Assembly (NCBI RefSeq): GCF_055900595.2
Contig: NZ_CM148325.1
Length of the DNA: 64,000 nt
Direction: 5' to 3' (one strand)
Shown one piece after another: positions 2,788 to 53,790 of the stretch. A model generated the notes under the pieces. That model did not search any database. It was given only the letters and a program-made list of their open reading frames with translations, and was not told where the DNA came from. The position numbers and the translations under genes were made by a program. How positions within the stretch are numbered: the first letter of the stretch is position 1; each line of letters starts with the position of its first letter.

Positions 2788-3498
2788 ATGAAAAAATATT
2801 ATCCACTATTAACTGTAATTCTTCTTGGTTTACCTTTGTGCTCTCAGGCATTAACTCTTAATCTACGTGGGGGATACAGAAGCGCCAGTCACGCTTATGA
2901 AACGTTGATTCAGGTTAGTCAGGGGTGGAATAATGGTTGGTGGGCAAGTTTTGAGTCAAACACCTGGAATACAATTCACAACAATGAAAATGAATTGTTT
3001 GCACTCAATTATAATAAAATAGATATAAATAAAACATATAAAATAGATGACAAATGGGCTCTAATCCCAGGGATTCAGACACAATGGATGTCAGCAGGAA
3101 GTCAGTATAACCCTTATCTGAAAATTTCGTATCAGGCAACGCCAGATCTTAATCTGGCCTTACGCTATCGCTATGACTGGAAAGCTTTCCGACAGACGGA
3201 TTTAGATGGCAACAGGGCGCGTAATGATCAGCATCAGTTTGATGGTTATGTGACATACAAAATTAATGATTCATGGTTGTTTGCATGGCAGACCACGGTA
3301 TATACGAAGGTTAATAATTTCAAATATGGGAATCATAAAAAAACAGCAACTGAAAATGCATTTGTTCTGCAATATAAAATGTCACCGGTGTTCACCCCAT
3401 ATATAGAATATGATTACTTGGATAAACAAGGGGTGTATAAGGGGAAAGATAATAAACATGAAAATAGTTACCGTGTCGGTGTTCTGATTAATTTTTAA
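2788..3498 (+). CDS. nanC: NanC-like outer-membrane N-acetylneuraminic acid channel (KdgM porin family)
   Basis: About 236 aa, signal peptide MKKYYPLLTVILLGLPLCSQA, aromatic-rich beta-strand pattern, C-terminal ..YRVGVLINF; GAGG before ATG 2788. Confidence 0.75.
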   Translation: MKKYYPLLTVILLGLPLCSQALTLNLRGGYRSASHAYETLIQVSQGWNNGWWASFESNTWNTIHNNENELFALNYNKIDINKTYKIDDKWALIPGIQTQWMSAGSQYNPYLKISYQATPDLNLALRYRYDWKAFRQTDLDGNRARNDQHQFDGYVTYKINDSWLFAWQTTVYTKVNNFKYGNHKKTATENAFVLQYKMSPVFTPYIEYDYLDKQGVYKGKDNKHENSYRVGVLINF

Positions 3499-9340: not shown

Positions 9341-11431
9341 ATGCGAATAACCACTCTGGCTTCCGTAGTCATTCCCTGTCTCGGATTTTCAGCCAGCAGC
9401 ATAGCTGCTGCAGAGGATGTGATGATTGTCTCTGCATCCGGCTATGAGAAAAAGCTGACTAACGCAGCCGCCAGTGTTTCTGTGATTAGCCAGGAGGAAT
9501 TGCAGTCCAGCCAGTACCACGATCTGGCGGAGGCTCTGAGATCAGTAGAGGGTGTGGATGTTGAAAGTGGTACGGGTAAAACCGGTGGGCTGGAAATCAG
9601 CATCCGAGGAATGCCAGCCAGTTACACGCTGATACTGATTGATGGTGTTCGTCAGGGCGGAAGCAGTGACGTGACTCCCAACGGTTTTTCTGCCATGAAT
9701 ACCGGGTTCATGCCCCCTCTGGCCGCCATTGAGCGTATTGAGGTTATCAGGGGGCCGATGTCCACACTGTATGGCTCTGATGCGATGGGCGGTGTGGTGA
9801 ATATCATTACCAGAAAGAATGCAGACAAATGGCTCTCTTCCGTCAATGCAGGGCTGAATCTGCAGGAAAGCAACAAATGGGGTAACAGCAGCCAGTTTAA
9901 TTTCTGGAGCAGTGGTCCCCTTGTGGATGATTCTGTCAGCCTGCAGGTACGCGGTAGCACACAACAGCGTCAGGGCTCATCGGTCACATCACTGAGCGAT
10001 ACAGCAGCCACGCGTATTCCTTATCCCACGGAGTCACAGAATTATAATCTTGGTGCACGTCTTGACTGGAAGGCGTCGGCGCAGGATGTGCTCTGGTTTG
10101 ATATGGATACCACCCGGCAGCGTTATGATAACCGGGATGGGCAACTGGGGAGTCTGACGGGGGGATATGACCGGACCCTGCGCTATGAGCGAAACAAAAT
10201 TTCAGCTGGCTATGATCATACTTTCACCTTCGGAACATGGAAATCGTATCTGAACTGGAACGAGACAGAAAATAAAGGTCGTGAGCTCGTACGCAGTGTA
10301 CTGAAGCGCGACAAATGGGGGCTTGCCGGTCAGCCGCGGGAGCTTAAGGAATCGAACCTTATCCTGAATTCATTACTGCTTACCCCTCTGGGAGAATCTC
10401 ATCTGGTTACGGTGGGGGGCGAGTTTCAGAGCTCGTCCATGAAAGACGGAGTTGTCCTTGCCAGCACAGGTGAAACTTTCCGGCAGAAAAGCTGGTCGGT
10501 ATTTGCTGAGGATGAGTGGCATCTCACGGATGCACTTGCGCTGACTGTGGGCAGCCGCTATGAACATCATGAGCAATTCGGGGGACACTTCAGTCCGCGT
10601 GCATATCTGGTCTGGGATGTGGCAGATGCCTGGACGCTGAAAGGCGGTGTGACCACGGGATATAAGGCACCCAGAATGGGGCAGCTACATAAAGGGATTA
10701 GTGGTGTATCCGGGCAGGGAAAAACAAATCTACTTGGTAACCCCGACCTGAAGCCGGAAGAGAGCGTCAGTTATGAGGCTGGGGTGTATTACGATAACCC
10801 CGCCGGTCTGAATGCCAATGTCACAGGTTTTATGACTGACTTCTCCAACAAGATTGTCTCTTATTCCATAAATGATAACACCAATAGCTATGTAAACAGC
10901 GGAAAGGCCCGGTTGCATGGTGTGGAATTTGCCGGCACATTGCCGCTGTGGTCAGAGGATGTCACGCTGTCACTGAATTACACCTGGACCCGAAGTGAAC
11001 AACGTGATGGTGATAACAAAGGTGCGCCGCTGAGTTATACCCCTGAACACATGGTGAATGCGAAACTGAACTGGCAGATCACCGAAGAGGTGGCATCATG
11101 GCTGGGTGCCCGTTATCGCGGGAAAACACCACGTTTCACCCAGAATTATTCGTCACTGAGCGCTGTACAGAAGAAAGTGTATGATGAGAAAGGAGAATAC
11201 CTGAAAGCTTGGACGGTGGTGGATGCAGGTCTGTCGTGGAAGATGACGGATGCCCTGACGCTGAATGCTGCGGTGAATAACCTGCTCAACAAGGATTACA
11301 GTGACGTGAGCCTGTACAGTGCCGGTAAGAGTACGCTGTATGCCGGTGATTACTTCCAGACGGGATCATCAACAACAGGATATGTGATACCTGAGCGAAA
11401 TTACTGGATGTCGCTGAACTATCAGTTCTGA
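9341..11431 (+). CDS. iha: IrgA-homologue adhesin / TonB-dependent outer-membrane siderophore receptor Iha
   Basis: 696 aa, signal peptide, plug plus 22-strand barrel, C-terminal ..WMSLNYQF; N-terminus MRITTLASVVIPCLGFSASSIAAAEDVMIV matches Iha as recalled. Confidence 0.9.
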   Translation: MRITTLASVVIPCLGFSASSIAAAEDVMIVSASGYEKKLTNAAASVSVISQEELQSSQYHDLAEALRSVEGVDVESGTGKTGGLEISIRGMPASYTLILIDGVRQGGSSDVTPNGFSAMNTGFMPPLAAIERIEVIRGPMSTLYGSDAMGGVVNIITRKNADKWLSSVNAGLNLQESNKWGNSSQFNFWSSGPLVDDSVSLQVRGSTQQRQGSSVTSLSDTAATRIPYPTESQNYNLGARLDWKASAQDVLWFDMDTTRQRYDNRDGQLGSLTGGYDRTLRYERNKISAGYDHTFTFGTWKSYLNWNETENKGRELVRSVLKRDKWGLAGQPRELKESNLILNSLLLTPLGESHLVTVGGEFQSSSMKDGVVLASTGETFRQKSWSVFAEDEWHLTDALALTVGSRYEHHEQFGGHFSPRAYLVWDVADAWTLKGGVTTGYKAPRMGQLHKGISGVSGQGKTNLLGNPDLKPEESVSYEAGVYYDNPAGLNANVTGFMTDFSNKIVSYSINDNTNSYVNSGKARLHGVEFAGTLPLWSEDVTLSLNYTWTRSEQRDGDNKGAPLSYTPEHMVNAKLNWQITEEVASWLGARYRGKTPRFTQNYSSLSAVQKKVYDEKGEYLKAWTVVDAGLSWKMTDALTLNAAVNNLLNKDYSDVSLYSAGKSTLYAGDYFQTGSSTTGYVIPERNYWMSLNYQF

Positions 11432-11463
11432 TAATAACAAAACGCTATCACTGACGGTAGAAT

Positions 11464-11502
11464 ACGTTGCCACTGTAACTCCTGGCGGAACAGTGGCAAC
11501 GT
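11464..11502 (+). terminator. rho-independent-type hairpin downstream of iha
   Basis: 12-bp perfect stem ACGTTGCCACTG / CAGTGGCAACGT followed by TATT. Confidence 0.5.
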
Positions 11503-12214
11503 ATTAGGTTAAGTGCATTTCCGATCCGCTAATGAGATTTCGTTACCAACAACTAATATCGTCACAGGAAATGCACGGATTATTTTTAACTTATCATTTA
11601 CATACTTGTCCAGAGTGTAAGCGCACCGTGAAGGACGTGGGGTAAAAATTAGTGTACAGAGAGAGTGACGTTCCAGGGCAACAACTCTTTCATGCGGTTG
11701 GCAGGCCAGGTGTTGATTACACTGATCACGTGGCGTAGCCACGTTTCCGGCTCGATTCCGTTAAGTTTTGCAGCTACCGATCAGGCTGTACATCACTGCC
11801 GCACTATCGCTCGTCATCTCAAAGTCCGGTCTCGTCAGCAGGAAGGTATCATTCTCTCCCGCCATTTTTCCGGGGGCCCGGTCAGATAAGTCCCTTTGTC
11901 TATCGCTGACTCCTGGCTCATAACCCGGTTAGCAGAATGCAGGGTCACCACCTCGCCACGACCGAATCCGGATAAGTCAATTGCACCTTCTCAATCGCCA
12001 TTTTGTCACAATTAAGTTTGATAAATCATGTCACCTCTGCACTGAATCTGCTCCAGTGCCTCATTGGTCTCCGTCCACCCCTTTAAACTGCCGGATAAGA
12101 CTGCTGCACAGCGCCTTCCCCGGAATCAAATCACTTTCCCTGTCCGCCACAATCCGCTTCATGCCACCTCGTATTTTGTTTCAGAGACCGGAATCTGCCA
12201 GAAAGTGACTACGC

Positions 12215-12535
12215 GTGCACATATCGGTTTTCTGGGTTACATGCATCGTGTTATTTTCTGAAATGCAAAATAATAAAAAACAAGGACACATAATGAAGGA
12301 TGAAATACACAGTACCAGCATCAACCCGGATGTTGTTGAGCAGTTTCTGGCCCTTATGAACACACATTGTAAATCCTCAGAAGAGGCGCTCGCCATGCTG
12401 AGTACGCTTTGTTACAACCTGATGGTGACATGCGGTATCCATTCCATGGACAGCCAGATGCTCAATGGGCATGGGATATCCATGCAACTTCAGGGGATTG
12501 ATATTGCCGAAAGGCCAGGTAAGAATATTCACTAA
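12215..12535 (+). CDS. hypothetical small protein (likely start at internal Met, about 12293)
   Basis: First of four tandem same-strand small ORFs; no recognised motif. Confidence 0.35.
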   Translation: MHISVFWVTCIVLFSEMQNNKKQGHIMKDEIHSTSINPDVVEQFLALMNTHCKSSEEALAMLSTLCYNLMVTCGIHSMDSQMLNGHGISMQLQGIDIAERPGKNIH

Positions 12536-12810
12536 CCTGAACAGGGTCTGAAAACGCTGTCTTTTCAGGCCTCTGCAGGCAAAAACTGATGACAACAAAA
12601 TTTCTGCGTTTGTACCCCACCGATGAAAAAGACAAAAACTCACACCGGGCTTCTAGCCAGTAAAGATAAAACCCGACGTGTCAGCCTCTACGAAACGCCA
12701 ACGGCATGGTGTATCAGGGGGCAGGAGTGCTACAGCAAAAGTACAGGACGCCGCTGTGGCAGCCACGACAGTCTGAGCAGACTGCGCCTGGACAGCATTA
12801 AGCCTGTTGA

Positions 12811-13194
12811 ATGAGTGGTGGCACCATGAAAGATAACAGCACAACCGCCACCCCAGAAGCCTGGAAAATGCGTTTTCTGGCCAACGGGACATCCGGCACA
12901 TGGTTTTACACTGACGACATTACAGTCACTGACGCGTGGCTTCGCGCGCACCCGGATGATGTGGAGGTTATCCCTCTCTGCCGGATACCACCCCGTCAGC
13001 ATTCCCATGAACAACATATTGAAGAACTCCGTGCAGCCCTGGCCCGGATGCTGCATATGCATCATATGATGCTGGAAACCACGCATTACAGGGAAAACAT
13101 CACCGATGCCCGTTGTATCCGTGAAATGCATGAAGCTCCATTACAGGCGCTCAATATTCTGGCCAGATACCCGCATAAAAAGGACGAGGTGTGA
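12811..13194 (+). CDS. hypothetical protein
   Basis: Tandem small ORF, His-rich segment (HMHHMMLETTHY); no recognised domain. Confidence 0.35.
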   Translation: MSGGTMKDNSTTATPEAWKMRFLANGTSGTWFYTDDITVTDAWLRAHPDDVEVIPLCRIPPRQHSHEQHIEELRAALARMLHMHHMMLETTHYRENITDARCIREMHEAPLQALNILARYPHKKDEV

Positions 13195-13197
13195 CGC

Positions 13198-13413
13198 ATG
13201 TGGCTACTGATTTTCTGGCTTTCATCTCCCTTTAATGTCTCTTCCGGTGATGCCCGGCAGCCCACACTGGCGGTGCACAGCCAGGCATTTCATACCGAAC
13301 GGGCCTGTCGCGATGCATTGCACGCCATTAAAAAGGAGAATGTTGGCGAATTTTCTCTGCGGGGCGTTTGTGTTTCTGACGGAAATACGAAGGAGGAAGC
13401 TGAGAGCTCATGA
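13198..13413 (+). CDS. hypothetical small protein
   Basis: Starts 4 bp after previous stop; overlaps next ORF by 4 bp (operon-like coupling). Confidence 0.3.
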   Translation: MWLLIFWLSSPFNVSSGDARQPTLAVHSQAFHTERACRDALHAIKKENVGEFSLRGVCVSDGNTKEEAESS

Positions 13414-13682
13414 CGGATATTACTGACAGACATACACTTCGCCGTATGTCCTGGTCGGAACTCTTCACGGCAGCACAGGAAGCGGAATTTCAGCGTGATT
13501 ACGAGCGTGCCAGAATAGTGTGGTCATTCGCCTTACATGTTGCAACAACCACGATTAACAAAAATCTGGCCATAGCTCATATTCGACGCTGCAATACTTT
13601 GTTGCATAAATCAAAAACAGTACCCGGAAACAACACGGGGGGCCGGTCAGTGTGCCTGAGACCCCAACATCCCCGGAGATGA
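13410..13682 (+). CDS. hypothetical small regulator-like protein (possibly PerC-like)
   Basis: Pattern ..AEFQRDYERARIVW..IRRC.. is loosely reminiscent of PerC-family activators; from recall only. Confidence 0.3.
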   Translation: MTDITDRHTLRRMSWSELFTAAQEAEFQRDYERARIVWSFALHVATTTINKNLAIAHIRRCNTLLHKSKTVPGNNTGGRSVCLRPQHPRR

Positions 13683-13915
13683 CTGACATTCCGGACTGAC
13701 GCAGTTGCTGCATATCTGTGGCAATACGTTGTATCCAGCCAGACAGGTTATCCCGCGTAGTGACAATTAACCCGCTTTCCTGCACCAGCTTCAGCCGGGC
13801 CGTCGGGGATTTTACCAGCCGGAAATATCAGTAAAACAACATATCATTATGCCATGGTGTACGCGGCCAGTGTACGCTTACTTAAGGAATGAGGGATAAA
13901 TTGGATATTATTACT

Positions 13916-14188
13916 TCACTTTGCTTTTTTATGAGATTCATCACATAAGTGGGGTTTTACTGTTAAATAATCTGAATTTATTTGATATCCGTAAAGCAGA
14001 TGTCTCAGTTCGCTGTTTCCAACTTTTGTTATTCCTCTGGGGCGAATGCTGTTTCCGCTGGAATATTCACCTGGCACCAGTCCCAGAAAAGCCATGAGCT
14101 GTTCAGGATTGGAAAATCGCGAAAAATCACCCAGTTCAGCAACCAGGGTTATTGCGATTAGTTGACCAACACCTTTAAGAGCCTGCAA
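13916..14188 (-). pseudogene. IS110-family transposase, C-terminal fragment
   Basis: ..LVAELGDFSRFSNPEQLMAFLGLVPGEYSSG.. typical IS110/IS902 C-terminal region; N-terminal part missing. Confidence 0.55.
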
Positions 14189-14344
14189 CTGGCAGACCAG
14201 ATTGCACAGAGATCACTCAGGTAACAGGCGAGATATTTCCTGATCGAGTTGAAGTATGCGATCTTCAATCTGCTCCAGATTCTGACAATAATGTTGAAAG
14301 CAATCTGTTGAGATAGCAGACCAAATGATTGAGCGAGTGTTAGT

Positions 14345-18109: not shown

Positions 18110-18654
18110 CGCTTCAATGGGAAATTGTTGTCGCCATTGTTCGATTAACGCGTATTTTTCAGCGACTCCTGTGCAAAATACGCGGTTGTAGATTCAATCT
18201 GTCAATGCAACACCCCTTTCAATTATCTCTTTCGGTGTTTTGAACTTCAGTGTCTTTCTCGGTCTGTTGTTTAGCTGAGCAGCAACCAGATCTAGTTCAT
18301 GTTGAGTATATTGGGCAAGACATGTCTTTTTAGGAAAGTACTGCCGAATTAGCCCATTTGTGTTCTCATTTGTTCCCCGCTGCCAAGGACTCTGAGGATC
18401 GCAGAAGTAAACTTTAACGCCGGTGCTGACAGTAAATTCTAGATGTCTGGCCAGTTCCATTCCTCTGTCCCATGTCAGTGATTTTCTGAGTTCTGACGGT
18501 AAACTCAGGAATTTGTCGGTAAGAGCCTGATTTACTGAGACAGAATCTTTGCCCCTGAGTCTAAGGATGATCGTATAACGTGATTTTCGGTCTACAAGTG
18601 TGTAACCGGCTCATTTAAACCGTCTGGTCTGTTTCCTCCGGCTCTACAAAAATA

Positions 18655-19332
18655 ATGTCCATCATTTTTAATGGACACTATCGTATGAAACACCGGACCT
18701 GGATCACTGAAGCTTTACGTCTTCACTTTGAAGAACATTTACCCCGGGTTGTGGCCGGGCGTCGCCTGGGTGTACCAAAATCAACAGTTTGTAGTATGTT
18801 CGTGCGCTTTCGGAGAGCTGGCCTTTCGTGGCCTTTGCCCGCAGGCATGTCGGAGCAGGAACTTGATGCCTGCCTTTACGGACAATTTTCCACGGTACCA
18901 GTCGTACGTCCTGAAAGCACCGTTATATCCGAAGCCCCCGTGGTAAAAAAACGTCCCCGGCGGCCCAACTTCCCTTATGAGTTTAAAATCGCCTTAGTGG
19001 AGCAGTCACTGCAGCCCGGAGCCTGTGTGGCGCAGATCGCCCGGGAAAACGGAATCAACGATAACCTGCTCTTCAACTGGCGCCATCAATACCGGAAAGG
19101 TGGCCTGCTGCCTTCCGGAAAAAATATGCCGGCACTGCTTCCCGTGACGTTAACGCCGGAGCCGGATAATAAAATCCCGGCCCCCGCACAGGAACCAGAG
19201 CGGATAAATACACCGTCCGACAGTCTGTGTTGTGAGCTGGTTCTGCCGGCCGGAACTCTCAGGCTTAAAGGTAAACTGACGCCGGCGTTATTACAGACAC
19301 TTATCCGCGAAATAAAAGGGAGCAGCCACTGA
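18655..19332 (+). CDS. IS66-family accessory protein (orf1, HTH)
   Basis: First ORF of IS66-type element. Confidence 0.7.
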   Translation: MSIIFNGHYRMKHRTWITEALRLHFEEHLPRVVAGRRLGVPKSTVCSMFVRFRRAGLSWPLPAGMSEQELDACLYGQFSTVPVVRPESTVISEAPVVKKRPRRPNFPYEFKIALVEQSLQPGACVAQIARENGINDNLLFNWRHQYRKGGLLPSGKNMPALLPVTLTPEPDNKIPAPAQEPERINTPSDSLCCELVLPAGTLRLKGKLTPALLQTLIREIKGSSH

Positions 19333-19679
19333 TGATATCTCTCCCTGCAGGTTCGCGTATCTGGCTGGTTGCAGGTATCACCGATATGCGAAATGGCTTT
19401 AACGGCCTGGCATCAAAAGTTCAGAACGTCCTGAAGGATGACCCGTTCTCCGGACACCTGTTCATCTTCCGCGGACGCCGGGGTGACCAGATAAAAGTGT
19501 TGTGGGCTGACAGTGACGGACTGTGCCTCTTCACCAAACGCCTGGAGCGGGGCCGCTTCGTCTGGCCAGTCACCCGTGACGGCAAGGTGCACCTTACTCC
19601 GGCTCAGTTATCCATGCTTCTTGAAGGTATCAACTGGAAGCACCCGAAACGAACGGAACGCGCTGGAATCCGCATATAA
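19332..19679 (+). CDS. IS66-family Orf2 (TnpB-like)
   Basis: 115 aa, MISLPAGSRIWLVAGITDMR.. typical IS66 orf2. Confidence 0.8.
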   Translation: MISLPAGSRIWLVAGITDMRNGFNGLASKVQNVLKDDPFSGHLFIFRGRRGDQIKVLWADSDGLCLFTKRLERGRFVWPVTRDGKVHLTPAQLSMLLEGINWKHPKRTERAGIRI

Positions 19680-19698
19680 CCCGTTGTAAAGTGAGGAT

Positions 19699-52310: not shown

Positions 52311-52570
52311 ATTGGCTGTTCACCTTCTGCCATCTTTTTGTATTTGTGCGTCAGTCGCCCGAATACCTCTTCAGCACTTTTACTTTCACCGCTGTTGATG
52401 CCTGCGGTAACGGCGCTCTGGAGTGATTCAAGCTTTATCTGCTGTTCCCGTTCTTCCAGAGCACGAAGTCCGGCACGAATGACTTCACTTGTATTGTTAT
52501 ACCGACCACTTTCTATTTGTTCGCGGATAAACGTTTCAAAGTAAGGACTGAGGGATACACTGGTAGGCAT
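52307..52570 (-). CDS. type II antitoxin, ParD-like (RHH)
   Basis: 87 aa; ..YFETFIREQIESGRYNNTSEVIRAGLRALEERE.. typical ParD/RHH antitoxin. Confidence 0.75.
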   Translation of the reverse strand: MPTSVSLSPYFETFIREQIESGRYNNTSEVIRAGLRALEEREQQIKLESLQSAVTAGINSGESKSAEEVFGRLTHKYKKMAEGEQPI

Positions 52571-52641
52571 GGTGATTTTCTCGCCGATTGATTACTATCA
52601 ATTAATAATAGTTAATATTCGCGAATTGTAAAATACCTCTT

Positions 52642-53508
52642 TTATGCCTTGCGGCTTTTGTTCACTGTGCTTGCCAGGGCTTCCGGGTAGTGTCTGACAA
52701 TAATATCATTAAGCCTGTCAACCAGTTCTGGTTTCCTGAACGTGATGTGCGCGGAGCCCTTCTTAAAGTATCTGATGCTGAACATCTCATCTTCATAGTC
52801 CTCTTTACCCTGAACAGACCGGATGTGCTCATTCAGATGAATGGTGATGTTTTCCCGGTTGTCGGGGATCGGTTTGCCGCTGAACAGATACAGCATTCTT
52901 TCCAGGTCGGCAAGTCGATCTGCCTGTTGCCCGGTGATAAGATGAAACCCCCACCGGTCCCACCTCACCAGGTTGTTGACGATAATTTTACTGCCAAATT
53001 TACAGGGTGAATTGTTTTCGTAATTCCAGCTCAGTCCCCTGAAAACATTGATCACCCCACGCTCAAACACTTCATCTTTGTTCTGGTGCAGTTGTTCAAA
53101 TGTGCTCAGAATGTTCGCTTCACTGATTTCCGGAAAATTATCGTATTCCAGTGACCGGTACCATGTATCACGGGCCTGCGCATCCATTAATGACAGCATC
53201 CCGGAACGTTGCATCAGGTCACGCCAGATTTCGCGATCGAGATTGCGGGTGATGGCTTTCATTGCTGTTTCCGGTTTATCCATGAGCCAGCATCCGCAGC
53301 GAAAATCCTGTTTCATCGCCCAGTCCCGTGCGCTTTTACCACCAATGCTTTTTGTCAGTACTGAGATTTCAGTCAGTTGCCGGATAAGCGTTTCGGTTTG
53401 TTGCAGTGCTGCATTCCGTACCGTCACAACGTGTCGGATACTGGTGGAGCAGATAACGTCCGTATTCCCGGTGACCACTTCCGGATGGGAGATTGTGATG
53501 TTTGACAT
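52642..53508 (-). CDS. conserved CP4-type prophage protein (YafZ-like, DUF4942-like)
   Basis: 288 aa; family assignment from recall only. Confidence 0.4.
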   Translation of the reverse strand: MSNITISHPEVVTGNTDVICSTSIRHVVTVRNAALQQTETLIRQLTEISVLTKSIGGKSARDWAMKQDFRCGCWLMDKPETAMKAITRNLDREIWRDLMQRSGMLSLMDAQARDTWYRSLEYDNFPEISEANILSTFEQLHQNKDEVFERGVINVFRGLSWNYENNSPCKFGSKIIVNNLVRWDRWGFHLITGQQADRLADLERMLYLFSGKPIPDNRENITIHLNEHIRSVQGKEDYEDEMFSIRYFKKGSAHITFRKPELVDRLNDIIVRHYPEALASTVNKSRKA

Positions 53509-53592
53509 TATCGGTTTCCCTTTTGGTTTATAAACGAAAACGCCAGCCGTATTCAGGCTGGCGTCAGTGGAATGAAGTCTGGTGAGTAAGGC

Positions 53593-53790
53593 TCACCGGT
53601 TCTGTTGCAGAAGCTGCAGTTGGCGCAGGGTATGGATATCCTCCCTCGCCTGTTCAATGCAGGGCAGCAGTGCTGCCGAATCCGTTTTATCCTCATCGTT
53701 GTCAAAGATAATTCCCGATTCGCAGTCGATATTGTCCTGCAGCCACGCAATCAGAATATCCAGTGCTGTTTCCGTGGTTAATGATTTCAT
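53593..53790 (-). CDS. small hypothetical protein (65 aa)
   Basis: ATG at 53790 preceded by AGGAA; acidic small protein downstream of cbtA-region genes. Confidence 0.35.
   Translation of the reverse strand: MKSLTTETALDILIAWLQDNIDCESGIIFDNDEDKTDSAALLPCIEQAREDIHTLRQLQLLQQNR

What the first reader, a model, noticed from the sequence alone, without database searches (positions are those of the whole stretch)
12215..13682. Four-gene operon of small unknown proteins between iha and IS debris
Four same-strand ORFs (about 80, 122, 71 and 90 aa) are tightly packed, with a 4-bp gap and a 4-bp overlap between the last three, which argues they are real and translationally coupled. The last resembles PerC-type small activators, and the second has a His-rich stretch. 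They lie directly downstream of the iha terminator and could be regulators co-acquired with iha.
Basis: partly seen in the sequence, partly recalled or inferred. Interest (0 to 1): 0.4.

Follow-up and report, generated by a model that had tools for sequence, protein, structure and literature searches.

The report
Plasmid-derived small-gene cassette beside iha
The ORFs next to iha are real genes, five rather than four: a fragment of IncI-type conjugative-plasmid backbone made of phage-style small proteins, the last resembling the ANR family of small anti-regulator proteins, and nothing shows that they control iha.

Summary
The four ORFs exist as described, and NCBI's PGAP pipeline annotates the same four. 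A fifth gene of 63 aa (12623-12814) was missed.

All five are under purifying selection against diverged plasmid copies (dN/dS 0.08-0.27, dS about 1 or more).

Window 12135 to about 13830 is 92-96% identical to an accessory segment of I-complex plasmids (IncI1, IncK2/Z, IncB/O). That segment lies between the pnd (hok/gef) killer locus and a convergent winged-helix gene of the ECs1377 family, followed by nuc and trbABC. In the island that winged-helix gene is cut off by IS debris.

About 97% of chromosomal copies share the same left flank, which runs to within 70 bp of the iha stop codon, so iha and the cassette travel together.

The last gene is not PerC: it gives no PF06069 hit, while the positive control PchD scores 124 bits. 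It is a divergent ANR-like protein:
- 25 bits on NF033650, below the 32-bit cut-off, and all 8 family members hit only that model.
- It carries 5 of the 7 published signature residues plus the conserved Cys.
- A confident model shows three helices.

Published transposon-insertion sequencing (TraDIS) of a plasmid carrying the cassette shows it is dispensable for plasmid maintenance and conjugation. The other four proteins have phage early-region relatives of unknown function.

Ordinary mobile-element cargo with one modest functional lead.

The parts
11461..11505 (+). Strong hairpin 30 nt after the iha stop codon. It may be the iha terminator, but it has no U-tract. Context only.
   Evidence: strand folding: -33.3 kcal/mol, z -3.44, 0 of 200 shuffles fold as well. 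The terminator scan does not call it.
11617..11810 (.). IS66-family fragment separating iha from the cassette. It marks an IS-mediated junction.
   Evidence: 96% identity to IS66-family transposase regions on many plasmids. PGAP annotates a 'transposase domain-containing protein' pseudogene at the matching position.
12135..13830 (+). Segment homologous to the I-complex plasmid accessory region that lies between pnd (hok/gef) and nuc.
   Evidence: 92-96% identity to IncI1 and IncB/O plasmids; plasmid synteny.
12293..12535 (+). orf80: acidic 80-aa protein (8.8 kDa, pI 5.3) with no known family. First gene of the cassette; it has an AAGGA Shine-Dalgarno sequence.
   Evidence: Annotated by PGAP. 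dN/dS 0.17 against a 71%-identical copy in L009. No Pfam, NCBIfam or PADLOC hit. Found in 479 plasmid records.
12623..12814 (+). orf63: basic 63-aa protein (pI 10.0).
   Evidence: phrog_1226 E=1.1e-16 plus three further PHROGs. Annotated on plasmids. dN/dS 0.12. Homologs sit in early regions of temperate-phage genomes.
12826..13194 (+). orf122: two-domain protein. N-terminal beta-beta-alpha-beta domain (residues 12-51) plus a C-terminal helical hairpin carrying a conserved, uncharacterised motif (RM..MH ... DA.C.RE.xEAP.QA).
   Evidence: dN/dS 0.10-0.14. The full-length family is restricted to E. coli. The C-terminal domain recurs in about 20 small metagenomic proteins at E around 1e-5, one of them in a prophage early-left gene array beside an integrase. 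AF2 pLDDT 67. No fold match.
13198..13413 (+). orf71: 71-aa protein with a very conserved hydrophobic N-terminus (MWLLIFWLSSPF) and two conserved Cys.
   Evidence: phrog_3766 E=1.5e-10. dN/dS 0.08-0.10. A 56-aa homolog is translationally coupled between the Ead and Eaa genes of Klebsiella phage 2b LV-2017.
13410..13682 (+). orf90: basic (pI 11.1) three-helix ANR-like protein. The C-terminal tail (residues 73-90) is disordered and frame-shifted relative to the 83-aa plasmid form.
   Evidence: NF033650 ANR_neg_reg at 25.3 bits, E=1e-5, cut-off 32, covering model positions 6-53 of 54. All 8 family members hit only this model. AF2 pLDDT 81 with helices 15-27, 31-44 and 48-70. Signature residues checked against PMC4983702. 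BLASTP of the IncK homolog against the validated ANR protein Rnr gives E=4e-6.
13612..13830 (-). 3' remnant of the convergent ECs1377-family winged-helix gene, which is 207 aa on plasmids. Here it is truncated and frameshifted.
   Evidence: tblastn maps plasmid protein residues 139-197 to window 13815-13642 at 67% identity. The intact gene scores 300 bits on NF052300 and hits HTH_39. Alignment A1.

Best explanation
**What it is.** This is a five-gene, translationally coupled cassette of small accessory proteins (orf80, orf63, orf122, orf71, orf90).

**Origin.** It belongs to the accessory segment of I-complex conjugative plasmids (IncI1, IncK2/Z, IncB/O). There it sits between the pnd (hok/gef) post-segregational killing locus and a convergent winged-helix gene of the ECs1377 family, followed by nuc and trbABC. 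A fragment of that plasmid segment was joined to iha by IS-mediated rearrangement. The fragment lost pnd and two thirds of the winged-helix gene. It now travels with iha in pheV-type ExPEC islands. This much is shown.

**Gene type.** The genes resemble phage accessory genes. Relatives lie in the early, non-essential gene arrays of temperate phages, and the characterised ANR protein Rnr lies in the early region of a Mu-like prophage. This is shown.

**Mechanism (inferred).** The last product is a divergent ANR-like, TPR-like three-helix protein. It most likely acts as characterised ANR proteins do, not by binding DNA but by binding other regulators: H-NS family proteins, AraC/XylS activators, or on the plasmid possibly the neighbouring winged-helix protein. 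That binding would damp or retune their activity.

**The other four proteins.** They have no assignable biochemical function. I take them as host- or element-modulating cargo rather than machinery, because the cassette is dispensable for plasmid maintenance and conjugation.
For: **Reality of the genes.** dN/dS is 0.08-0.27 at dS of about 1 or more for all five genes. The frames are intact in diverged chromosomal copies.

**Plasmid origin.**
- 92-96% identity and full synteny on IncI1 and IncB/O plasmids.
- The orf63-orf122-orf71-ANR part occurs at about 72% identity on IncK2/Z plasmids.
- A mosaic copy with a 71%-identical orf80 is in L009.
- The winged-helix remnant is present in the window.

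**Linkage to iha.** 783 genomes carry the cassette with the same left flank, out of about 810 chromosomal places. Three island contexts were inspected.

**Phage-type genes.** PHROG hits. Homologs in early-region gene arrays of temperate-phage genomes. The orf122 C-terminal domain occurs in a prophage early-left gene array.

**ANR-like identity of orf90.**
- All 8 diverged family members hit only NF033650, at 20.6-29 bits, best E=2e-7. Validated ANRs score 57-66 bits.
- Positions A22, E26, A34, W38 and A41 plus C61 match the published ANR signature (PMC4983702; alignment).
- A confident three-helix model has TPR/MIT-like structural neighbours.
- BLASTP of the IncK homolog against Rnr gives E=4e-6.
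- Rnr itself lies in a packed early gene array of a Mu-like prophage with no adjacent AraC gene.

**ANR mechanism from the literature.** Direct binding to AraC-family activators and to H-NS: PMC4983702, PMC5570504, PMC10148876.

**Dispensability.** In TraDIS of pMS7163B, which carries the cassette at 52354-53730, insertions are tolerated (Log2MPM 12.6-13.2) and the conjugation Log2FC values are -0.78, +2.08, +1.29 and +1.62. That is the range of neutral resistance cargo (S1 Table of PMC10286972).
Against: **ANR membership is below threshold.**
- 25.3 bits against a 32-bit cut-off.
- Two of the seven signature residues (W43, R47) are replaced (L53, H57).
- BLASTP against Aar finds nothing.
- hhalign against a shallow Aar/Cnr profile gives only 4% probability.
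- The chromosomal form is 10.46 kDa, above the published 4.4-9.5 kDa range.

**Context and expression.**
- The annotation of the matching Nissle island lists no AraC/XylS gene.
- The consensus scan finds no promoter upstream of orf80.
- The likely plasmid partner, the winged-helix gene, is truncated here.
- No expression or phenotype data exist for the chromosomal copy.

**Weak constraint between chromosomal copies.** dN/dS among them is only 0.3-0.4, from 15-22 substitutions. That is compatible with relaxed constraint.

**Four of the five proteins have no functional evidence at all.**
Confidence: 0.6

Rival explanations
1. In the chromosome the cassette is a functionless passenger. It is plasmid DNA that hitch-hiked with iha during IS-mediated assembly of the island. 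The frames are intact only because the capture was recent.
For: - IS debris lies on both sides, and the pnd locus and the winged-helix gene are lost or truncated.
- No promoter is called upstream.
- The tail of orf90 is frame-shifted relative to the plasmid form.
- Chromosomal copies differ by at most 1.6%, and dN/dS between them is 0.3-0.4.
- Even on its native plasmid the cassette is dispensable.
Against: - Nearly every listed row carries at least four intact PGAP CDSs under the match, and about 810 chromosomal places match. The two most divergent chromosomal copies inspected have no stop codon or frameshift in any of the five frames.
- The frame-shifted tail is predicted to be disordered, so the three-helix core is untouched.
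- The surrounding IS and pap genes have decayed visibly while these five have not.
Confidence: 0.3
2. One reading: the last gene is a PerC/Pch-type small activator, and the cassette regulates iha, sat or iuc, with which it was co-acquired.
For: - The cassette is tightly linked to iha.
- orf90 is a small, basic, helical protein like PerC.
- PchD gives a faint hit to the ANR model (16 bits), so the two families may be remotely related.
- O157 SpLE1 also carries an ANR-like fragment and pchD near iha.
Against: - orf90 gives no PerC Pfam hit, while the control PchD scores 124 bits. BLASTP against PchD gives E=1.7.
- The same cassette sits on hundreds of plasmids that lack iha, sat and iuc.
- Characterised ANR proteins act as negative modulators (PMC4038620).
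Confidence: 0.07
3. The cassette is a conflict module, such as anti-defence, superinfection exclusion or toxin-antitoxin. Small phage and plasmid genes of this style often have such roles.
For: - Relatives lie in phage early accessory regions, where such genes cluster.
- On plasmids the cassette sits among type I toxins (pnd, dqlB) and a nuclease.
- orf71 has a hydrophobic N-terminus and a conserved Cys pair, which would fit a small envelope protein (alignment).
Against: - No PADLOC hit for any of the five proteins.
- No Pfam or NCBIfam toxin or antitoxin family.
- Transposon insertions in single genes are tolerated without loss of the plasmid, which argues against a classical toxin-antitoxin pair.
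- The cassette lies on the trailing side of oriT, not in the leading region where plasmid anti-defence genes cluster. This follows from the gene order in the pESBL table.
Confidence: 0.1

Closest known systems
ANR (AraC negative regulator) family: Aar of EAEC, Cnr of ETEC, Rnr of EPEC and C. rodentium (NCBIfam NF033650)
   Same: - Small, basic protein with three alpha-helices.
- Conserved A..AE...D...A...W..A core and the conserved Cys.
- The only HMM family hit by all 8 homologs.
- Encoded on mobile elements. Rnr likewise sits in a tightly packed array of small phage early genes.
   Different: - Scores 20.6-29 bits against a 32-bit cut-off, where validated members score 57-66.
- W43 and R47 of the signature are replaced.
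- It has a 20-40 residue extra tail, and the chromosomal form exceeds 10 kDa.
- No AraC/XylS partner gene is nearby.
- No binding or regulatory data exist.
Accessory region between excA/pnd and trbA of I-complex plasmids (R64-type IncI1, pMS7163B IncB/O, IncK2/Z)
   Same: Same five genes in the same order at 92-96% identity, with the same convergent ECs1377-family gene. The TraDIS gene numbers 530, 560, 570 and 580 of pMS7163B are the direct counterparts.
   Different: - The window copy lacks pnd, two thirds of the winged-helix gene, nuc and trbABC.
- It is chromosomal and flanked by IS fragments and iha.
- Some IncI1 plasmids, such as pESBL, carry different cargo in this slot, including an Hha/YmoA gene.
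Early-region accessory ('moron'-like) gene arrays of temperate phages
   Same: - Short co-oriented ORFs with overlapping stop and start codons and unknown functions.
- Individual homologs are present: the orf63 family (phrog_1226), the orf71 family (phrog_3766, found between the Ead and Eaa genes of Klebsiella phage 2b LV-2017), and the orf122 C-terminal domain.
   Different: - There is no DNA-level similarity to any phage record.
- The five-gene order itself was not found in a phage.
- No phage structural, replication or integration genes accompany it.
PerC/Pch family (PF06069)
   Same: Small helical regulators of about 90 aa carried on mobile elements. pchD lies in the iha-bearing SpLE1 island of O157. 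PchD has a faint similarity to the ANR model.
   Different: orf90 gives no PF06069 hit, where the control scores 124 bits, and there is no pairwise similarity.

Membership tests
ANR family (NF033650; Santiago et al. 2014, 2016) | Scores at or above the curated NCBIfam cut-off of 32 bits | tested here: not met
   orf90 scores 25.3 bits, E=1e-5, over model positions 6-53 of 54. Homologs score 20.6-29 bits. The controls Aar, Cnr and Rnr score 57-66 bits.
ANR family (NF033650; Santiago et al. 2014, 2016) | Three conserved alpha-helices spanning the protein | tested here: met
   The AF2 model has pLDDT above 90 for residues 11-65, with helices at 15-27, 31-44 and 48-70.
ANR family (NF033650; Santiago et al. 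2014, 2016) | Signature residues A10, E14, A22, W26, A29, W43 and R47, plus the highly conserved Cys | tested here: inconclusive
   A22, E26, A34, W38, A41 and C61 align with the signature and with Aar, Cnr and Rnr. The W43 and R47 positions are L53 and H57.
ANR family (NF033650; Santiago et al. 2014, 2016) | Low molecular mass (published range 4.36-9.54 kDa) | tested here: inconclusive
   The chromosomal form is 10.46 kDa and the plasmid form 9.44 kDa. The excess is a disordered tail.
ANR family (NF033650; Santiago et al. 2014, 2016) | Accompanies and is activated by a cognate AraC/XylS regulator | tested here: not met
   No AraC/XylS gene appears in the annotation of the matching island or beside the plasmid copies. 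The validated member Rnr also lacks an adjacent AraC gene. Activation is not testable here.
ANR family (NF033650; Santiago et al. 2014, 2016) | Binds AraC-family activators and/or H-NS and represses their regulons | not testable with these tools
   Needs two-hybrid, pull-down or complementation experiments.
PerC/Pch family (PF06069) | Match to the PerC Pfam model | tested here: not met
   No hit at E<=1. The positive control PchD scores 123.8 bits. BLASTP against PchD gives E=1.7.
I-complex plasmid accessory segment between pnd and nuc | Same genes in the same order with high nucleotide identity to the plasmid segment | tested here: met
   92-96% identity over window 12135-13830. The order orf80, orf63, orf122, orf71, ANR-like, then the convergent winged-helix gene holds in four plasmids of different subgroups.
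Operon with translational coupling | Same strand, minimal or overlapping intercistronic spacing, conserved across homologs | tested here: met
   Gaps are 87 nt, 11 nt and 3 nt, followed by a 4-nt ATGA overlap. The spacing is preserved in the IncK2/Z copies. Co-transcription itself was not tested.
Known anti-phage defence or toxin-antitoxin systems (PADLOC-DB) | Match to a defence-system protein model | tested here: not met
   No hit at E<=1 for any of the five proteins.

The most novel reading that the evidence does not exclude
orf90 and its plasmid homologs form a previously unrecognised ANR/PerC-like subfamily. It is carried by I-complex resistance plasmids and by iha islands. It binds H-NS family or other global regulators, so that carrying the plasmid or island retunes silencing of horizontally acquired virulence genes (iha, sat, pap, aerobactin) or of the plasmid transfer genes. 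The four co-translated partners would form one functional unit with it.
Probability: 0.15. Interest if true: 0.55.

Novelty: new member of a known kind. Interest (0 to 1): 0.3.

Why it matters
If orf90 does act like an ANR protein, then common IncI-type resistance plasmids and the iha/sat/aerobactin island of ExPEC and Nissle 1917 carry a small modulator of global regulators that standard annotation misses.

Short of that, the result has three uses:
- It shows where the DNA flanking iha came from: a conjugative-plasmid backbone.
- It adds a missed gene.
- It removes a wrong label (PerC).

As it stands, this is ordinary accessory cargo with one testable lead.

Tried and rejected
- **Rfam**, 11300-14300 at E<=1: only a chance snoRNA hit, and no hok/sok-type RNA.
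- **blastn against phage records:** no DNA match.
- **PADLOC:** nothing.
- **PDB sequence search** with orf90 and orf122: only chance hits. These include the neurotensin receptor, which may explain the odd database name.
- **orf122 structure:** moderate model (pLDDT 67), and Foldseek against PDB gives nothing below E=1.
- **orf90 structure:** Foldseek against PDB gives only generic TPR, MIT and 14-3-3 helical matches at E>=0.16. The afdb50 library was unavailable, so I could not test whether ANR models are its nearest structural neighbours.
- **Links to Aar:** hhalign of the orf90 family against a six-sequence Aar/Cnr profile gives 4% probability, and BLASTP against Aar finds nothing. The link to ANR rests on the broader NCBIfam model and on Rnr.
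- **Aar homolog search:** returned only 5 close relatives, too few for a good profile.
- **Pfam and PHROG scans** of distant relatives of the orf122 C-terminal domain: no named family.
- **Hft region of IncI1 pESBL** as a possible identity: rejected, because it lies between traA and repY, elsewhere on the plasmid.
- **Promoter and terminator scan:** nothing above shuffle expectation. The hairpin between orf80 and orf63 is not significant (z -1.55).
- **Literature searches** for the presumed CFT073 locus tags c3610-c3615 (recalled from memory) and for ECs1377 found nothing relevant. The Furuya and Komano 1996 paper on R64 pnd and trbABC is not held.
Full report
**Setting.** The window is a pheV-associated ExPEC island. 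The 11500-14200 stretch is 100% identical to Nissle 1917, the CFT073-lineage 'clone D' strains, ABU 83972 and many others. The annotated order is nan-like genes, IS3, iha (window 9341-11431), IS debris, four hypothetical CDSs, more IS debris, sat, iutA/iuc, pap remnants, an integrase and tRNA-Phe.

**Observation.**
- The four ORFs are at the stated coordinates and on one strand, and PGAP annotates the same four.
- The true starts are most likely 12293 (ATG preceded by AAGGA) and 12826. The upstream ATG at 12811 is absent from the IncK2/Z copies.
- The spacing between genes is 3 nt between orf122 and orf71, and a 4-nt ATGA overlap between orf71 and orf90.
It is annotated on plasmids, matches four PHROG families (best E=1.1e-16) and is under strong constraint.
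- All five frames are conserved against copies that have diverged to saturation at synonymous sites. dN/dS is 0.12 (orf63), 0.10-0.14 (orf122), 0.08-0.10 (orf71), about 0.27 (orf90) and 0.17 (orf80).
- That rules out chance ORFs. It also rules out the long antisense ORF at 12730-13131.

**What the segment is.**
- Window 12135 to about 13830 is 92-96% identical to a segment of I-complex conjugative plasmids.
- On IncI1 and IncB/O plasmids the order is traY, excA, (a TnsA-like gene), pnd (hok/gef, opposite strand), orf80, orf63, orf122, orf71, an 83-aa ANR-like ORF, then a convergent 207-aa winged-helix gene of the ECs1377 family (NF052300, 300 bits; HTH_39), then nuc, dqlB and trbABC.
- IncK2/Z plasmids carry the orf63-orf122-orf71-ANR part at about 72% DNA identity, in another position after nuc.
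- In the window the pnd locus is gone. Only the last third of the winged-helix gene survives, frameshifted, on the minus strand (tblastn 13815-13642).
- To the left lie about 325 bp of unassigned DNA, an IS66-family fragment (11617-11810), and a strong hairpin without a U-tract just after iha.
- The cassette is therefore a captured plasmid fragment, not a native neighbour of iha.
- The linkage to iha is nevertheless stable. 783 genomes have the cassette with the same left flank, out of about 810 chromosomal places. Islands with different outer flanks keep iha, the IS66 fragment and the cassette together.
- In O157 Sakai SpLE1, iha (ECs1360) has within 10 kb an ANR-like fragment (46% identity, inside ECs_5708) and ECs1377 itself. 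iha has evidently been associated with this kind of DNA more than once.

**The last gene (orf90).**
PF06069 gives no hit, although it scores PchD at 123.8 bits. BLASTP against PchD is at noise level.
- NCBIfam's ANR model does match: 25.3 bits, E=1e-5, nearly full model length, but below the 32-bit cut-off.
- All eight diverged members of the orf90 family hit this model and no other consistent family. The validated ANRs Aar, Cnr and Rnr score 57-66 bits.
- The published ANR signature (PMC4983702) has seven highly conserved residues plus a conserved Cys. orf90 has A22, E26, A34, W38, A41 and C61 in register with Aar and Cnr, but L53 and H57 in place of W43 and R47.
- AlphaFold gives a confident three-helix model (pLDDT above 90 over residues 11-65) with a disordered tail. 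That tail is the part that differs by a 2-bp indel between the chromosomal (90 aa) and plasmid (83 aa) forms.
- Structural neighbours are TPR, MIT and 14-3-3-type helical protein-binding units, none significant.
- The IncK homolog aligns with Rnr at E=4e-6 in pairwise BLASTP. Aar alone gives nothing.
- Rnr, a characterised ANR that binds H-NS and Ler (PMC10148876), sits in the early region of a Mu-like prophage among packed small ORFs and has no adjacent AraC gene. That is the closest analogue of the arrangement here.
- I therefore call orf90 ANR-like, a divergent relative that fails the curated threshold. I infer the family's mode of action: binding to regulators such as H-NS or AraC/XylS proteins (PMC4983702, PMC5570504). 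This step is inference.

**The other four genes.**
- orf63 and orf71 have homologs in early accessory gene arrays of temperate-phage genomes. The orf71 homolog is coupled between the Ead and Eaa genes of a Klebsiella phage. The Cys residues of orf63 are not conserved in the phage homolog, so a zinc site is unlikely.
- orf122 is restricted to E. coli as a full-length protein. Its C-terminal 50 residues form a conserved, unnamed domain found in about 20 small metagenomic proteins. One of these lies in a prophage early-left gene array next to an integrase. The 'His-rich stretch' is part of this motif, but only M78 and H79 are conserved.
- The orf122 model is moderate (pLDDT 67) and matches no known fold.
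- orf80 has no relatives outside these plasmids and islands.
- None of the five proteins hits PADLOC.

**Experimental evidence from the literature.**
- pMS7163B, the plasmid used for TraDIS by Lian et al. 2023, carries the cassette at 52354-53730.
- In their Table A, genes 530, 560, 570 and 580 tolerate insertions (Log2MPM 12.6-13.2, against 0.98 for repA). Their conjugation Log2FC values are -0.78, +2.08, +1.29 and +1.62. Neutral resistance genes fall in the same range, +0.8 to +2.0.
- The cassette is therefore dispensable for maintenance and surface mating in K-12.
- Another IncI1 plasmid, pESBL, has different dispensable cargo in the same slot, including an Hha/YmoA-family gene. This marks the slot as a variable accessory region.

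**Verdict.** It is wrong on family (ANR-like, not PerC) and on origin (plasmid backbone cargo, not an iha regulon). Whether the chromosomal copy does anything is open. A passenger role remains a serious rival.

Noticed in passing
window 12623-12814 (+): A conserved 63-aa gene (phrog_1226; dN/dS 0.12) is not annotated in most chromosomal RefSeq records, which list four hypothetical proteins, but it is annotated on plasmids. This is an annotation gap that affects hundreds of genomes.
   Followed up: yes
window 13410-13682 and its homologs (P0049, P0055, P0057, P0077): Several public records name this protein 'neurotensin receptor R8'. The only basis I could find is a chance-level similarity (E about 1) of residues 35-70 to neurotensin receptor chains in the PDB. 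The name is an artefact.
   Followed up: partly
L004 2606-6697 (pE2855-1, IncK2/Z, bovine E. coli): An S6-family autotransporter protease (SPATE) lies between nuc and the cassette on this plasmid. It is only 30-53% identical to the window's Sat. Virulence cargo evidently inserts beside this cassette on plasmids too, which hints that the iha-cassette-sat block could have been assembled on a plasmid.
   Followed up: partly
L012 (O157 Sakai SpLE1) 2906-3253, 10292-10915 and 19878-20147: Near iha in O157 lie an ANR-like fragment (46% identity to orf90, inside ECs_5708), the type gene ECs1377, and pchD. PchD, a PerC-family protein, gives a faint hit to the ANR model (16 bits, E=0.007), so the PerC and ANR families may be remotely related.
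   Followed up: partly
pMS7163B genes 590 and 610 (L019 4681-5304 and 6081-6257); not present intact in the window: In the published TraDIS table, insertions in the winged-helix gene (Log2FC +2.94) and in the 58-aa gene '610' upstream of trbA (+4.69, the highest value on the plasmid) are enriched after conjugation. These may be negative regulators of transfer, or the effect may come from the transposon's outward-reading promoter.
   Followed up: no
window 11461-11505 (+): A long near-perfect hairpin (-33 kcal/mol, z -3.4) lies 30 nt after the iha stop codon and has no U-tract. It could be an atypical terminator, an RNA-stability element or the end of a mobile element.
   Followed up: partly
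window about 18230-21300: The IS-rich stretch between the cassette and sat is arranged differently from the Nissle 1917 record (the k-mer offset changes from +501 to +1754 to -953). The window therefore comes from a related but not identical island variant.
   Followed up: no
window 11811-12134: About 325 bp between the IS66 fragment and the start of plasmid homology matched no plasmid other than island-bearing records and has no called feature. Its origin is unknown.
   Followed up: no
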